This document shows positions 7,492-12,825 of a stretch of DNA of 14,358 nucleotides, one piece after another. A model generated the notes under the pieces. The model was not told where the DNA came from. It saw nothing but the letters and a program-made list of their open reading frames with translations, and ran no database searches. A program made the translations under genes and the position numbers. Within the stretch, counting starts at the first letter, position 1, and each line of letters starts with the position of its first letter. Location: IMG/VR virus record IMGVR_UViG_3300035698_011115, one strand, 5' to 3'. Origin of the DNA: a virus.

Positions 7492-7555
7492 TTATAATTC
7501 ACCTGTCCATGTGGACAAATGTTTAACTATTAACCCTCTTTACAAGGAGAACTGT

Positions 7556-7981
7556 ATGATTACGTTATCTGCTTTAGAAGAACAAATTCTTAATAATATT
7601 GATGAAGCAACTGACACATTACTTACACCCATTGATATTAACCGGTCTATTAATGAGATTACAAACACGTTACATATGACTGTAGCTCATAAGATAGTTA
7701 TTGGTATCATGGACAAACTCAATGTTGCTGTAGGAGCGGCGGTAACTCCTGAAGAAGCAATTGCTAATGGAATAGAGATTATTACATCATTTCAGCAACG
7801 CATAGTTGATGATGGTACAGAAGAAAATGATGAATTTCATAAGATCGTTTTAGCTATATGTCGTGAGTTGATCAAGGGTATTCCAGATCTATTAACGATG
7901 GAACTAATTGAAGATGGTGAGTTCGAGGAACCTGTACCTGCCCCATCGACGGAAGAATCACCTGAAGCCCCAACTGAATAA
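7556..7981 (+). CDS. hypothetical acidic protein (141 aa; alternative upstream start at 7511)
   Basis: ATG 7556 has a perfect AAGGAG 6 nt upstream, whereas the track start 7511 has none. The C-terminus is acidic and Pro-rich (EDGEFEEPVPAPSTEESPEAPTE). Confidence 0.6.
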   Translation: MITLSALEEQILNNIDEATDTLLTPIDINRSINEITNTLHMTVAHKIVIGIMDKLNVAVGAAVTPEEAIANGIEIITSFQQRIVDDGTEENDEFHKIVLAICRELIKGIPDLLTMELIEDGEFEEPVPAPSTEESPEAPTE

Positions 7982-7990
7982 ATATGATAT

Positions 7991-8065
7991 GCGTGATTGG
8001 TGTTAATGGCAGCATGCGGGATTTCCATTCCTGAGGTAAGGGTTCAAATCCCTTATTGCGCTCCA
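7991..8065 (+). tRNA. tRNA-Gly (anticodon UCC), CCA encoded
   Basis: The acceptor GCGTGAT pairs with ATTGCGC (two G-U). The anticodon stem CGGGA/TCCTG carries loop TTTCCAT. The variable loop is 4 nt and the T-arm is AAGGG-TTCAAAT-CCCTT, followed by TCCA. Total 75 nt. Confidence 0.75.
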
Positions 8066-8154
8066 TCTTTTGTTTGAATTTTCTTTAACGCTAAGGACAT
8101 ATATTAAATAAAGGAAATGGAAGATATTCTAGTGAGGATTAAATTTTAGACTCA

Positions 8155-8275
8155 CCTACCATGTGTAGGCGGAGATACGGTGGCGCAACGCGGCTGATGC
8201 GTCACTAGCCGGTGCAGACACGGACGTTTATAGGCGGGAAGGGTTGGACTTCAGGGTACAACCCTTCATTTCACG
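8155..8275 (+). ncRNA. GC-rich structured non-coding island (candidate small stable RNA or 5'-UTR structure) between tRNA-Gly and the next gene
   Basis: About 120 nt are markedly more GC-rich than their surroundings (GGCGGAGATACGGTGGCGCAACGCGGCTGATGCGTCACTAGCCGGTGCAGACACGGACG...). Hairpins include ACGC-GGCTGAT-GCGT and a perfect 9-bp stem GAAGGGTTG/CAACCCTTC (8238-8267). There is no tRNA T-loop motif and no ORF with a Shine-Dalgarno. Confidence 0.3.
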
Positions 8276-8283
8276 GAGATAAT

Positions 8284-8607
8284 ATGAGCAAGAACCAAGT
8301 TGATCTTTGCGAAAAACGAATGAAACAATTGGCAGATCCTAAATATTTAGGAGTTGATTGTTATAGTATATATCAATCAATATCTGCATTAGCAGCTTCT
8401 CGTTTGAGAGCAATGGCAGATCATCCATATGGATACCCTTGTGCTAAAGGGATGACATGTAAAAAATGGAAAAAGAAATTAGATAAAATGGCAACTGCAT
8501 TTGAGTTGTTATTAGAAGATGACTATGAAGTTATAGCGAAGAGACAAAAAGAAATTGATAAAGGGTTGAAATTGTTTTCGCAATGGTTTCAATCTCTTTG
8601 GACATAA
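8284..8607 (+). CDS. hypothetical protein (107 aa)
   Basis: ATG 8284 has GGAG 6 nt upstream. The track's longer 8212 start would read through the GC-rich structured island and lacks a Shine-Dalgarno. Confidence 0.6.
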   Translation: MSKNQVDLCEKRMKQLADPKYLGVDCYSIYQSISALAASRLRAMADHPYGYPCAKGMTCKKWKKKLDKMATAFELLLEDDYEVIAKRQKEIDKGLKLFSQWFQSLWT

Positions 8608-8660: not shown

Positions 8661-9074
8661 ATGAATCTAAATACGGCAATTATGGTTGCATCAGAAGCAC
8701 ATAGGTTCCAAAGTCGCTGGGATGGATCAGCATATATTCTTCATCCTATTCGGGTGATGATGGATATGGATACAGAAGAAGAACAGATTGTTGCAATATT
8801 ACATGATGTGATTGAAGATACAAAAGCAATTTATAGAGATTTGCTGGATTGTGGATTCCAAACTAATGTCATTGCCGCAATTGAAGCCATGACAAAAGTT
8901 GAAGGAGAAACATACGAGGTATATATTCAGAGAGTTAAAGAGAATAAACTTGCTAGGAAAGTTAAACTAGCTGATATCAGAGACAACTTGGATGTTACTA
9001 TACTTAGAAGTGTATCTGACAGACACAAAGAACGCATTAACAAGTATTTGAATGCAATACAATATTTATCGTAG
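8661..9074 (+). CDS. HD-domain (p)ppGpp hydrolase, small alarmone hydrolase (SAH/Mesh1/SpoT-N like)
   Basis: SpoT/RelA-type HD hydrolase motifs are present: EAHRFQSRWDGSAYILHPIRV and ILHDVIEDT, with a later KLADIRDNL. An AGAGGG Shine-Dalgarno is present. The 137-aa protein has no synthetase domain. Confidence 0.7.
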   Translation: MNLNTAIMVASEAHRFQSRWDGSAYILHPIRVMMDMDTEEEQIVAILHDVIEDTKAIYRDLLDCGFQTNVIAAIEAMTKVEGETYEVYIQRVKENKLARKVKLADIRDNLDVTILRSVSDRHKERINKYLNAIQYLS

Positions 9075-9962: not shown

Positions 9963-10545
9963 GACTTGGTTTACAGCGGATTGTCATTTTGGGCATGCGC
10001 GTGTTATAGAATATTGCAAACGCCCATTTGCAAACGTGGATGATATGGATGAGGCACTTATTCAAAATTGGAATGATAGAGTGCAGAAAGATGACTTTGT
10101 GTGGGTCTTAGGCGACTTTTGTATGTCACGTAACATGCAAGTTATACAAAAGTATTTAAGTCGCTTGAGGGGCCGTGTAGGTATTGTATTAGGCGATCAT
10201 GATGCATATGCTAATGTTATGAGTGAAGCAGGGTTTGATAAGGTTAGAGATCTTGTTCACTTCAAAGATAGTGAGCATTTAGGTCATGTTAACATGGTAT
10301 TGTGTCATTGGCCTTTTGCTATTTGGAGAAAATCTCATTACAACAATTGGCATCTTCATGGGCATTGTCATAATCATTATCAAGGTGAAGGAAAAATACA
10401 TGATGCTGGAGTTGATGCCAATGACTTTAAGCCTATATCACTTGAACAAGTAATTGCCATTATGAATGACAAAAAAGATAATGCTAATTTCGTTGGTGAT
10501 AAGAAAGTCAATTCAGTAAGAAGGTATGATAATAAGCCCTTGTAG
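9955..10545 (+). CDS. calcineurin-like metallophosphoesterase
   Basis: The metallophosphatase motifs occur in order: D-x-H (TADCHFGH), GD (VLGDF), GDHD (a GNHD variant) and GH-x-H (HGHCH). Confidence 0.75.
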   Translation: MARTWFTADCHFGHARVIEYCKRPFANVDDMDEALIQNWNDRVQKDDFVWVLGDFCMSRNMQVIQKYLSRLRGRVGIVLGDHDAYANVMSEAGFDKVRDLVHFKDSEHLGHVNMVLCHWPFAIWRKSHYNNWHLHGHCHNHYQGEGKIHDAGVDANDFKPISLEQVIAIMNDKKDNANFVGDKKVNSVRRYDNKPL

Positions 10546-10590
10546 TTCAATGGATGGAAGATACGGGTTCGAATCCTGTCAGGGGTACCA
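10536..10590 (+). other. truncated tRNA-like element: acceptor stem + D-arm + T-arm + CCA, but no anticodon arm (55 nt)
   Basis: The acceptor GCCCTTG pairs with CAGGGGT (two G-U), followed by U8 A9. The D-arm is GTTC-AATGGATG-GAAG. Only AT separates it from the T-arm ACGGG-TTCGAAT-CCTGT, which is followed by A-CCA. The metallophosphoesterase stop codon lies inside it. Confidence 0.45.
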
Positions 10591-10607
10591 TTTTTGAGGA
10601 GGTGAAG

Positions 10608-12583: not shown

Positions 12584-12594
12584 AATATCCCTGG

Positions 12595-12635
12595 CTAGGG
12601 CTGAAGTTACTATGATTTCAGCCCTAGTCAGTTTT
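12595..12635 (+). terminator. rho-independent terminator after the tRNA-Trp/small-gene block
   Basis: An 11-bp perfect stem CTAGGGCTGAA/TTCAGCCCTAG with an 11-nt loop, followed by TCAGTTTTG (a T-run). Confidence 0.6.
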
Positions 12636-12825
12636 GTAGGATAAACTTCTAAATAAAAGGTACAAAATGGATAAAAACAAAACATTATGACACGACTGGT
12701 TTGCCTGGTATCCAGTGTGCGCCAATATAGATTGGAATAAGAAACACTGGATATGGATGGAATATGTTGAACGAAAATATCACATTGAACTCTTTAAAGG
12801 GTTTTGGAAATATAGGGTGAAATCA

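What the first reader, a model, noticed from the sequence alone, without database searches (positions are those of the whole stretch)
8155..8275. GC-rich structured island in an AT-rich intergenic region: candidate small stable RNA
About 120 nt of strongly GC-enriched sequence with several hairpins, including a perfect 9-bp stem, lie between tRNA-Gly and the next RBS. There is no plausible ORF or tRNA fold. T4 carries two small stable RNAs of unknown function in its tRNA cluster, so an analogous phage sRNA is a reasonable hypothesis. Alternatively it is a structured 5' leader that regulates the downstream gene.
Basis: seen in the sequence. Interest (0 to 1): 0.5.

Follow-up and report, generated by a model that had tools for sequence, protein, structure and literature searches.

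The report
Phage copy of RlfAB-linked small RNA
The GC-rich island after tRNA-Gly is a phage-borne, extended copy of a very widespread but apparently uncatalogued small RNA that in bacteria and in prophages such as P1 sits beside a DUF3800/RlfB gene pair listed as a candidate anti-phage system, so the phage may carry it as a mimic of that system's RNA partner.

Summary
Window 8148-8272 is a GC-rich (64%), strongly folding, ORF-free stretch in an unusually long tRNA-to-gene gap.

It matches no tRNA, no Rfam family, and not the T4 rnaC/rnaD RNAs.

Its first 60 nt belong to a conserved small-RNA family. The family has a near-invariant 5' hairpin (CUCAYCURCCAYGUGUAGRNNGAG), a 4-nt linker, a GC-rich second hairpin, then AGC. 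A covariance model built only from bacterial and prophage members scores the window at 47.6 bits (E about 6e-12).

In more than 120 bacterial genomes of many phyla, and in P1/P7 and Bifidobacterium phage Bbif-1, this RNA has its own sigma-70 promoter and terminator. There it converges on an rlfB-like gene that follows a DUF3800 (rlfA-like) gene, the pair PADLOC lists as candidate defence system PDC-M04.

The window copy has no nearby RlfA/B genes, no fixed promoter and no U-tract after hairpin 2. It carries about 60 extra structured nt ending 7 nt before the RBS of the 8284 ORF. Similar orphan copies lie in the tRNA regions of two Vibrio phages and in a 40-tRNA viral contig.

The function is inferred, not shown. 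The most likely reading is a trans-acting RNA co-transcribed with the tRNAs that mimics the RlfAB partner RNA. Expression and activity are untested.

The parts
7991..8065 (+). tRNA-Gly(UCC) with encoded CCA. It is the upstream neighbour and the probable co-transcription partner.
   Evidence: ARAGORN; Rfam tRNA 52.6 bits.
8066..8147 (+). AT-rich spacer (about 30% GC). It has only a weak sigma-70-like match (TGGAAG-16-TAAATT, 7/12), at a spacing different from the bacterial family promoter.
8148..8272 (+). The whole RNA element: hairpins P1 to P5.
   Evidence: The unconstrained MFE of 8148-8272 equals the family-consistent structure, -44.5 kcal/mol. The CM R2 hit covers 8148-8233.
8151..8174 (+). 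P1, the conserved 5' hairpin CUC-A-CCUAC-[CAUGU]-GUAGG-CG-GAG. CUC 8151-8153 pairs with GAG 8172-8174, and 8155-8159 pairs with 8165-8169.
   Evidence: Matches the family motif CTCAYCTRCCAYGTGTAGRNNGAG. It carries the C...G variant of the covarying pair: across all 128 motif hits listed (which include the window itself), T...A 117, C...G 11, no mixed cases.
8175..8178 (+). 4-nt linker AUAC. The commonest family linkers are UAAC and UUAC.
8179..8206 (+). P2, a 9-bp GC-rich hairpin (8179-8187 with 8198-8206) with a 10-nt loop. It is homologous to the family's terminator stem and keeps the conserved CG...CG core.
   Evidence: CM alignment. Three pairs change on both sides relative to Vibrio phage L130. 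Family helix 2 has 10 of 11 pairs with changes on both sides.
8207..8209 (+). Conserved AGC following P2. In bacterial members a U-tract comes next; here it does not.
8209..8236 (+). Lineage-specific extension with two small predicted hairpins (8209-8223 and 8225-8236).
   Evidence: MFE only. No relatives are available to test it.
8238..8267 (+). P5, the terminal hairpin: a perfect 9-bp stem (8238-8246 with 8259-8267) plus a 3-bp extension. It is followed by AUUUC, which is not a canonical U-tract.
   Evidence: The terminator scan found nothing here. Only a weak resemblance to a terminator-type sRNA model.
8274..8281 (+). CGGAGAUA containing the RBS GGAG (8275-8278). It is an exact repeat of 8170-8177, which is the P1 3' strand plus linker.
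   Evidence: Read from the sequence. An alternative fold pairs CUC 8151-8153 with this GAG.
8284..8607 (+). Downstream 107-aa orphan ORF, followed at 8661-9074 by a small alarmone hydrolase-like HD_4 protein.

Best explanation
Window 8148-8272 encodes a small structured RNA homologous to a widespread bacterial and prophage sRNA.

In its usual form that sRNA is about 70 nt. It is transcribed from its own sigma-70 promoter. It consists of a near-invariant 5' hairpin (P1), a 4-nt linker, and a GC-rich hairpin (P2) that also serves as an intrinsic terminator. It lies convergent with, and overlaps the 3' end of, an rlfB-like gene that follows a DUF3800 (rlfA-like) gene. This pair is phage P1 rlfA-rlfB and PADLOC candidate defence system PDC-M04.

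The phage copy keeps P1, the linker, P2 and the AGC. It has lost the U-tract and the fixed promoter, and it has gained about 60 nt of extra structure. It sits just after tRNA-Gly with no RlfA/RlfB gene in the 14 kb.

Inferred mechanism (not shown): the RNA is made as part of the tRNA-containing transcript and acts in trans. It presents the conserved P1/P2 surface that the RlfA/RlfB proteins, or whatever recognises this RNA, normally bind. It would then work as a mimic or antidote of a host RlfAB-type system.

Shown: family membership, family structure, gene association, and orphan status within the window. Inferred: expression, processing, protein binding, and any anti-defence role.
For: Membership:
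- CM R2 was built from 85 bacterial/prophage sequences without the window. It scores window 8148-8233 at 47.6 bits, E about 6e-12, with P1, linker, P2 and AGC aligned.

Family structure:
- 95.2% of cells are paired against 83.7% in shuffles and 42-56% in slid controls. In helix 2, 10 of 11 pairs change on both sides.
- The P1 Y/R pair covaries perfectly (117 T...A, 11 C...G), and the window has the C...G form.

Independent transcription unit in bacteria:
- 63 of 119 loci have a promoter match of 9/12 or better, against 3% for shuffled upstream sequence. In 60 of those 63 the -10 hexamer ends 8-9 nt before the motif. 111 of 119 have 5 or more T in an 8-nt window after P2.

Gene association:
- 88 of 125 motif loci hold an RlfB-like ORF. 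85 of these are convergent, with a median stop at +57. 74 hold both A and B.
- PADLOC PDC-M04B 6e-69 and PDC-M04A 6e-98; Pfam DUF3800 1.4e-11.
- P1 RlfA scores 3e-107 and RlfB 1e-53 against the locus HMMs.
- Two loci retrieved by protein alone also carry the RNA convergent to rlfB: Bbif-1 at 56.3 bits and Methylobacterium at 38.2 bits.

Orphan phage copies:
- No A/B homologue in the window or in the fetched parts of L130-L136.
- tblastn of RlfB and RlfA over 50,697 phage records finds only P1/P7-likes, Bbif-1 and a few temperate phages. Vibrio phages 1.084.O and 1.121.O are absent from those results, yet they carry the RNA in their tRNA regions.
- IMG/VR contig L135 has the RNA inside an array of about 40 tRNAs.

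P1 is not a local antisense element:
- No conserved complementary site of 9 nt or more was found in the loci.

RlfB-like fold:
Against: - There are no expression, end-mapping or binding data for any member.
- The window phage has no sequenced relatives, so the 3' 60 nt rest on energy prediction alone.
- Only 14 kb of the phage is visible, so RlfA/B genes could lie elsewhere in the genome.
- The host is unknown, so it cannot be checked whether it carries an RlfAB system.
- The role of the RNA in RlfAB loci (antitoxin, activator, guide or substrate) is unknown. A mimic could therefore help or harm the phage.
- Six of the eight P1 pairs were fixed by the search pattern used to collect members, so their invariance is partly circular.
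- The RNA abuts an RBS, which also fits a cis-acting role.
- CM E-values are rough because calibration was short.
Confidence: 0.4

Rival explanations
1. Cis-acting 5' leader. The element is the structured 5' UTR of the 8284 ORF and the downstream alarmone-hydrolase operon. P1 would serve as a protein- or ribosome-binding switch that controls read-through at the terminal hairpin or access to the RBS.
For: The RNA ends 7 nt before GGAG 8275-8278. CGGAGAUA occurs in P1/linker (8170-8177) and again at the RBS (8274-8281). An alternative fold pairing CUC 8151-8153 with the RBS GAG is isoenergetic, -45.7 against -44.8 kcal/mol. In Firmicute members the hairpin plus terminator sits directly upstream of DUF3800-I or -VIII RNAs, an attenuator-like layout.
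Against: In 85 bacterial loci the RNA points at the 3' end of a convergent gene, so it is not a leader there. The downstream genes differ in every phage copy. The terminal hairpin lacks a U-tract, whereas a canonical terminator in the same window has one at 12590-12640. A search of 80 alarmone-hydrolase viral loci found no such element.
Confidence: 0.2
2. Cognate component of a phage-encoded RlfAB-like or other DUF3800 system whose protein genes lie outside the 14-kb window, as in P1, with the RNA gene relocated into the tRNA cluster.
For: P1/P7 and Bbif-1 carry the RNA together with the proteins. SPbeta-like phages carry the motif next to a DUF3800-VIII RNA.
Against: In all 88 loci that have the proteins, the RNA is immediately adjacent. 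The two Vibrio phages with tRNA-region copies do not appear in the RlfA or RlfB tblastn results over the whole phage collection. The window copy has lost the promoter and terminator typical of the cognate form.
Confidence: 0.17
3. Decaying relic. A horizontally acquired sRNA gene or a fragment of an RlfAB locus that landed in the recombination-prone tRNA region and has no current function.
For: The promoter and U-tract are lost. The tRNA regions of the Vibrio phages are mosaic, with a breakpoint exactly at the 5' edge of the element. No partner genes are nearby.
Against: P1, the linker, P2 and the AGC are intact, and base pairing is kept through compensatory changes. GC content is kept at tRNA level in a 39% GC genome. 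Terminator-less copies occur in at least four unrelated phage contigs.
Confidence: 0.13
4. DNA-level element, such as a recombination, homing or packaging site or an origin, rather than an RNA.
For: There is an inverted repeat with a highly conserved sequence, and a mosaic breakpoint lies next to it in the Vibrio phages.
Against: The strand-specific layout (promoter, then hairpins, then U-tract) is conserved in bacteria. G-U pairs are kept on one strand only: 46 G-U in P1 and 53 U-G in P2. Stem covariation is typical of RNA.
Confidence: 0.05
5. N-terminal coding extension of the downstream gene starting at GTG 8212.
For: The frame is open from 8212 to 8607.
Against: There is no SD before 8212, while a strong GGAG sits 5 nt before ATG 8284. 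The 107-aa protein has no homologues with which to test conservation of the extension. Gene callers on two independent contigs used the ATG. The extension would explain only 72 nt of the island.
Confidence: 0.02

Closest known systems
Unnamed hairpin-plus-terminator sRNA convergent with rlfB in phage P1 (between pmgF and rlfB, NC_005856 about 52.91-52.98 kb, minus strand) and in DUF3800/RlfB (PADLOC PDC-M04) loci of many bacteria
   Same: Same P1 hairpin (21 of 24 positions identical to the consensus; two of the three differences form a compensatory pair). Same linker length, a homologous P2 with the CG core, and the same AGC after P2. CM score 47.6 bits.
   Different: No fixed sigma-70 promoter. 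No U-tract after P2. About 60 nt of additional structure. No adjacent RlfA/RlfB genes. Embedded in a tRNA cluster directly upstream of an unrelated ORF.
DUF3800-I to -XI RNA motifs (Weinberg et al. 2017, PMC5737381; Rfam RF02969, RF02967, RF03075 and others)
   Same: Same genomic company: DUF3800 genes in prophages and mobile elements. Highly conserved nucleotides, often a 3' terminator, and unknown function. In Firmicute and other loci, DUF3800-I, -VII or -VIII RNAs lie 45-560 nt downstream of this hairpin sRNA on the same strand.
   Different: No Rfam 15 model, including the DUF3800 models, matches the motif or the island, even at E up to 10. It appears to be a separate, simpler RNA. I could not read the paper's supplement to rule out that it was drawn there.
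Phage T4 species 1 and 2 stable RNAs (rnaC, rnaD)
   Same: Non-tRNA structured RNAs of about 120-140 nt, encoded inside a phage tRNA cluster on the tRNA strand, with unknown function.
   Different: No sequence or structure similarity: R2 scores at most 7.6 bits in the T4 region. The T4 RNAs end in tRNA-like T-arm or CCA features, which the island lacks.
Phage-encoded RNA mimics of defence-system RNAs, for example the pseudo-ToxI repeats of phage PhiTE that neutralise ToxN (from my own knowledge)
   Same: A phage carrying only the RNA half of a protein-RNA system found in hosts. This is the working model here.
   Different: ToxI is a tandem 36-nt repeat processed by its toxin. Here there is a single-copy hairpin RNA and no repeats. 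An antitoxin role for the RlfAB-linked RNA has not been demonstrated.

Membership tests
RlfAB/DUF3800 (PDC-M04)-linked hairpin-terminator sRNA (family defined here) | 5' hairpin P1 with consensus CUCAYCURCCAYGUGUAGRNNGAG, including the covarying Y-R pair | tested here: met
   Window 8151-8174 is CTCACCTACCATGTGTAGGCGGAG, with the C...G form of the covarying pair.
RlfAB/DUF3800 (PDC-M04)-linked hairpin-terminator sRNA (family defined here) | 4-nt linker, then GC-rich hairpin P2 with a conserved CG...CG core, then AGC | tested here: met
   The cmsearch alignment covers AUAC, 8179-8206 and AGC 8207-8209.
RlfAB/DUF3800 (PDC-M04)-linked hairpin-terminator sRNA (family defined here) | Significant score against a covariance model built without the query | tested here: met
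   R2: 47.6 bits, E about 6e-12 in 165 kb. It is the only hit in the window.
RlfAB/DUF3800 (PDC-M04)-linked hairpin-terminator sRNA (family defined here) | U-tract directly after P2/AGC, so that P2 acts as an intrinsic terminator | tested here: not met
   At most 2 T per 8 nt at +45 to +70, against 5 or more in 111 of 119 bacterial members.
RlfAB/DUF3800 (PDC-M04)-linked hairpin-terminator sRNA (family defined here) | Own sigma-70 promoter with the -10 hexamer ending 8-9 nt upstream of P1 | tested here: not met
   The best match is 7/12 at a distance of 5 nt. By contrast, 63 of 119 bacterial loci have 9/12 or better, 60 of them at the fixed distance.
RlfAB/DUF3800 (PDC-M04)-linked hairpin-terminator sRNA (family defined here) | Convergent rlfB-like gene preceded by a DUF3800 (rlfA-like) gene | tested here: not met
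   HMMs A and B find nothing in any window ORF of 40 aa or more. PADLOC gave no PDC-M04 hit for the 9 window ORFs scanned, and Pfam gave no DUF3800 hit for the 19 scanned. Only 14 kb could be tested.
Rfam DUF3800-I to -X RNA motifs | Match to the family covariance model | tested here: not met
   cmscan at gathering threshold and at E up to 10 on 8120-8290 returns only noise hits, sbrA and asX2.
T4-type small stable RNAs (rnaC/rnaD) | Encoded within a phage tRNA cluster on the tRNA strand | tested here: met
   Six tRNAs lie on the + strand, and the island starts 83 nt after tRNA-Gly.
T4-type small stable RNAs (rnaC/rnaD) | Sequence or structure homology to rnaC or rnaD | tested here: not met
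   R2 finds nothing at T4 rnaC/rnaD. R1 and nhmmer found no relatives in other phage loci.
T4-type small stable RNAs (rnaC/rnaD) | Accumulates as a discrete stable RNA processed from the tRNA precursor | not testable with these tools
   Needs Northern blots or RNA-seq.
tRNA / tRNA-like | Cloverleaf with T-arm and acceptor stem | tested here: not met
   ARAGORN and the Rfam tRNA model give no hit in 8066-8283, even at E up to 10.
Known riboswitch or leader classes | Match to a curated aptamer or leader model | tested here: not met
   No Rfam cis-regulatory family at E up to 10.
Type III antitoxin RNAs (ToxI-like) | Tandem direct repeats processed into units | tested here: not met
   The repeat search found no repeat family covering the island.

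The most novel reading that the evidence does not exclude
The near-invariant hairpin sRNA is the missing RNA subunit of the RlfA (DUF3800, RNase H-like) / RlfB (RelE/colicin-D-like fold) candidate defence system. Large lytic phages carry terminator-less orphan copies inside their tRNA arrays as RNA decoys that switch that system off. This would be an RNA-based anti-defence strategy travelling together with the tRNA counter-measures.
Probability: 0.22. Interest if true: 0.85.

Novelty: new variant of a known kind. Interest (0 to 1): 0.68.

Why it matters
- DUF3800 proteins appear in retron type VII, Cas12a2/a3 and Cas13-CASK loci and in PADLOC candidate PDC-M04. Eleven unexplained RNA motifs are known around them, and neither the proteins nor the RNAs have a known mechanism (PMC5737381, PMC7736814, PMC10910872).
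- This work ties one very simple, near-invariant sRNA to the RlfA-RlfB pair across many phyla and in the classic phage P1. P1 is an easy genetic system in which to test it.
- Unrelated phages keep only the RNA, placed among their tRNAs. This gives a concrete, testable hypothesis for the role of the RNA (partner or antidote of an RNase-like toxin) and for a new kind of phage counter-defence.
- It also shows that GC-rich islands in AT-rich phage tRNA regions can be more than T4-like curiosities.

Tried and rejected
Database and relative searches that found nothing:
- Rfam at gathering threshold and at E up to 10 on three nested ranges gave only noise.
- Close relatives of the phage were sought by blastn against 50,697 phages. 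They were also sought through IMG/VR protein-anchored scans with four window proteins and exact DNA scans. No usable relative was found.
- The 107-aa neighbour is unique among 5.8 billion proteins. The only other copies of the locus are 715-bp and 884-bp contigs identical to the window.
- The metagenome scan with a tRNA-Gly 18-mer anchor gave 41 chance hits. None was a tRNA, and none matched the CM.

Hypotheses tested and dropped:
- Leader of alarmone-hydrolase genes: 80 viral loci plus 2 metagenomic loci encoding homologues contain no such element.
- ykkC/ppGpp-type riboswitch, hammerhead or twister: these came from visual resemblance only, and no model support was found.
- The three-way-junction fold was rejected because it breaks the conserved P1. 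The family-consistent fold is the unconstrained MFE of 8148-8272.
- Mini-ORF through P1 (MCRR...): its length is not conserved and the ATG is lost in L131, judged by inspection of the sequences.
- P1 as an antisense element to rlfAB mRNA: no conserved complementary site was found.
- T4 rnaC/rnaD homology: none.

Literature:
- A search for the literal motif, for PDC-M04 and for rlfA/rlfB found no description of this RNA.
- The supplement of Weinberg 2017 is not held in the library.

Full report
**1. The observation**

The window is 39.3% GC. The stretch 8168-8247 reaches 63.8%, tying a tRNA-Ser gene for the highest 80-nt value. It lies in a 218-nt gap between tRNA-Gly(UCC) (7991-8065) and the ATG at 8284. 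That ATG has a GGAG RBS at 8275-8278. The other tRNAs in the window are followed by an ORF within about 20 nt, apart from tRNA-Trp.

ARAGORN finds no tRNA here. Rfam gives nothing at gathering threshold and only noise at E up to 10. Folding energies beat dinucleotide shuffles, with z from -2.0 to -2.9. The 9-bp perfect stem is at 8238-8246 paired with 8259-8267. So the feature is real. Its true limits are about 8148-8272.

**2. The search for relatives of the phage failed**

- blastn against 50,697 phage records found nothing.
- Four protein-anchored scans and two DNA scans of IMG/VR returned no usable relative. The single locus fetched (L002, 38% identity over 83 residues) has no counterpart of the island.
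- The downstream 107-aa protein has no homologue among 5.8 billion proteins except itself, on a 715-bp contig identical to the window.
- The next gene (8661-9074) is a small alarmone hydrolase-like HD_4 protein. Its best relatives are about 60% identical and sit in different contexts without the island. Eighty further viral loci encoding this enzyme also lack it.
- A metagenome scan anchored on the tRNA-Gly gave only chance matches.

**3. The lead**

A permissive blastn of the island alone gave an insignificant hit (E = 2) of 8151-8180 to an unannotated 1-kb tRNA region of Vibrio phage 1.084.O. The match continues structurally. After the shared 30 nt, both sequences have a 9-bp hairpin of different sequence followed by UAGC, and three pairs have changed on both sides.

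Using the Vibrio sequence as query then hit intergenic DNA in several unrelated phages. These were SPbeta/phi3T-like Bacillus phages (E = 2e-5), P1/P7, Bifidobacterium phage Bbif-1, and Geobacillus, Streptococcus and Mammaliicoccus phages.

I derived a degenerate 24-mer, CTCAYCTRCCAYGTGTAGRNNGAG, for which I estimate about one chance hit in the genome collection. It found three IMG/VR contigs. These span Chloroflexota, Clostridia, Gamma-, Beta-, Alpha- and Deltaproteobacteria, Planctomycetes, Cyanobacteria, Nitrospirae, Chlamydiae, Spirochaetes and Bacteroidetes, plus one Bathyarchaeia MAG.

**4. What the family is**

In bacteria the motif sits at a fixed distance downstream of a sigma-70 promoter. 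A match of 9/12 or better occurs in 63 of 119 loci, against 3% for shuffled upstream sequence. In 60 of those 63 the -10 hexamer ends 8-9 nt before the motif. After the motif comes a 4-nt linker (mostly UAAC or UUAC), a GC-rich hairpin, AGC, and a U-run. 111 of 119 loci have 5 or more T in an 8-nt window there.

RNAalifold on 85 sequences gives two helices:

- **P1** is CUC/GAG plus YCURC/GUAGR around a CAYGU loop.
- **P2** is the terminator stem.

Overall, 95.2% of cells are paired against 83.7% in column shuffles and 42-56% when partners are slid. In P2, 10 of 11 pairs show changes on both sides.

Six P1 pairs were fixed by my search pattern and therefore carry no information. The two free positions do. 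The Y/R pair is T...A in 117 and C...G in 11 of the motif hits (a set that includes the window's own C...G copy), with no mixed cases. The neighbouring pair alternates between G-U and A-U.

No Rfam 15 family matches this RNA in P1, in phi3T or in 25 bacterial loci. I found no paper containing the sequence.

**5. Its genomic partner**

In 85 loci an ORF of about 165 aa converges on the RNA, with its stop at a median of +57, inside or just after P2. Upstream of that ORF lies an ORF of about 235 aa.

| Gene | Matches |
|---|---|
| about 165-aa ORF | PADLOC PDC-M04B (6e-69) |
| about 235-aa ORF | PDC-M04A (6e-98); Pfam DUF3800 (1.4e-11) |

These are the homologues of phage P1 RlfB and RlfA, which score 1e-53 and 3e-107 against HMMs made from the loci. 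In P1 the RNA lies between pmgF and the 3' end of rlfB.

Two loci retrieved through the protein alone also have the RNA convergent to rlfB, with P1 variants that my pattern would have missed: Bbif-1 at 56.3 bits and a Methylobacterium replicon at 38.2 bits.

In Firmicute-type and some other loci the hairpin-terminator unit is followed on the same strand by Rfam DUF3800-I, -VII or -VIII RNAs. This links it to the DUF3800-associated motifs of Weinberg et al. 2017, whose function is unknown (PMC5737381).

DUF3800 is predicted to have an RNase H-like fold and recurs in retron, Cas12a2/a3 and Cas13 contexts (PMC7736814, PMC10910872, PMC13594972).

P1 has no conserved complementary target within the loci. 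That argues for recognition by a protein or another conserved factor rather than local antisense pairing.

**6. Membership of the window element**

A covariance model (R2) built from the 85 bacterial/prophage sequences, without the window, scores 8148-8233 at 47.6 bits (E about 6e-12; calibration is rough). P1, linker, P2 and AGC all align, and it is the only hit in the window.

The window's P1 is the C...G variant. Its nearest relative in the scan is the sequence on the Bathyarchaeia MAG contig. That member, like the window, has a non-terminating P2 followed by AGC and a separate terminal hairpin.

For 8148-8272 the unconstrained MFE is exactly P1 + P2 + two small hairpins + the 9+3-bp terminal hairpin (-44.5 kcal/mol).

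Features of the bacterial form that are not met:

- There is no U-tract after P2.
- There is no fixed-distance promoter.
- There is no RlfA/RlfB gene in the 14 kb.

The same terminator-less, 3'-extended, protein-less form occurs in four other places:

- the tRNA region of Vibrio phage 1.084.O (61 bits);
- the tRNA region of Vibrio phage 1.121.O (56.6 bits);
- IMG/VR contig L134 (44.5 bits);
- L135, where it lies inside an array of about 40 tRNAs (40.5 bits).

tblastn of RlfB and RlfA over the whole phage collection returns only P1/P7-likes, Bbif-1 and a few temperate phages, and not the Vibrio phages.

**7. Interpretation**

- *Shown.* The island is a member of this sRNA family. The family is a structured, independently transcribed RNA tied to RlfA/RlfB (PDC-M04) loci. 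The window copy is an orphan, modified form in a tRNA cluster.
- *Inferred.* It is transcribed with the tRNAs. All genes and tRNAs are on the + strand and there is no own promoter. It would act in trans through the conserved P1/P2 surface, most plausibly as a mimic or antidote of the RNA partner of a host RlfAB-type system. I give this 0.4.
- *Rivals.*
  - A cis-acting leader of the 8284 operon, supported by the CGGAGAUA repeat at 8170-8177 and 8274-8281 and an isoenergetic RBS-pairing fold.
  - A cognate RNA of phage RlfAB genes lying outside the window.
  - A decaying relic.
  - A DNA-level site.
  - The GTG-8212 coding extension, which has essentially no support.

**8.

T4 rnaC/rnaD are analogous only in location. 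The family model finds nothing in the T4 tRNA region (at most 7.6 bits). The T4 RNAs have tRNA-like 3' parts that are absent here.

**9. Limits**

- There are no expression data.
- The 3' 60 nt have no comparative support.
- Only part of the phage genome is visible, and the host is unknown.
- The invariance of P1 is partly built into the way members were collected.
- The role of the RNA in RlfAB loci is unknown.
- The supplement of the 2017 motif paper could not be read, so prior depiction of this hairpin cannot be excluded.

Noticed in passing
window 1788-6178: An 862-aa protein with a Major Vault Protein shoulder domain (PF11978, 9.7e-30) and a Vault_3 repeat. It is followed by a DivIVA-like 126-aa ORF and a 466-aa SPFH/Band_7 protein (phrog_11908). 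A vault-like shoulder domain in a phage is unusual.
   Followed up: partly
window 10536-10592: A tRNA-like element of about 57 nt with an acceptor stem, a D-like region, a perfect T-arm (CGGGTTCGAATCCTG) and an encoded ACCA, but no anticodon arm. Rfam tRNA scores it at 29.6 bits and ARAGORN misses it. It overlaps the listed ATG 10554, so the real start of that ORF is probably the GTG near 10607, after a GGAGG.
   Followed up: partly
window 8661-9074: A 137-aa HD_4 protein whose homologues are named (p)ppGpp hydrolase: a phage small alarmone hydrolase two genes downstream of the RNA.
   Followed up: partly
window 1262-1618 and 45-359: A stand-alone response-regulator receiver domain protein (PF00072, 2e-19) sits between tRNA-Ser and tRNA-Met. 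The C-terminal part of a dCMP/cytidine deaminase lies at the window start.
   Followed up: no
window 12590-12640: A canonical intrinsic terminator (a long GC stem plus TTTTGT) lies right after tRNA-Trp, followed by about 270 nt with only tiny ORFs before the 425-aa cytidylyltransferase-like gene. It shows what a real terminator looks like in this phage.
   Followed up: no
window 6210-6251: A near-perfect 20-nt inverted repeat (90% complementary, 2-nt spacer) lies 25 nt upstream of tRNA-Ser(GCU).
   Followed up: no
L130 2489-2792 (Vibrio phage 1.084.O, MG592459.1 about 55.1-55.4 kb): An unannotated cluster of odd tRNA-like RNAs with ACCA ends. It includes a mini-helix (ATCGCAGG...CCTGCGATACCA) and an element with a 9-nt anticodon-like loop. 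ARAGORN calls none of them, including a tRNA-Met that Rfam scores at 42.6 bits.
   Followed up: partly
L138 1505-1689 (phi3T); L164; L193: The hairpin-terminator unit is followed on the same strand by Rfam DUF3800-VIII, -I or -VII RNAs. This suggests a modular arrangement of a common 5' unit plus a variable RNA that the Rfam models do not capture.
   Followed up: partly
L135 (IMGVR_UViG_3300045391_005805), 1-8100: A viral contig with about 40 tRNA genes in 8 kb. The family RNA is at 5231, and a weak YrlA (Y RNA-like) hit lies at 5706-5784.
   Followed up: no
L130 2995/2996 against L131 1962/2522: The mosaic breakpoint between the two Vibrio phages falls exactly at the 5' edge of the RNA element. 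In 1.121.O a 560-nt insert with a 131-aa ORF separates it from the shared upstream sequence.
   Followed up: no
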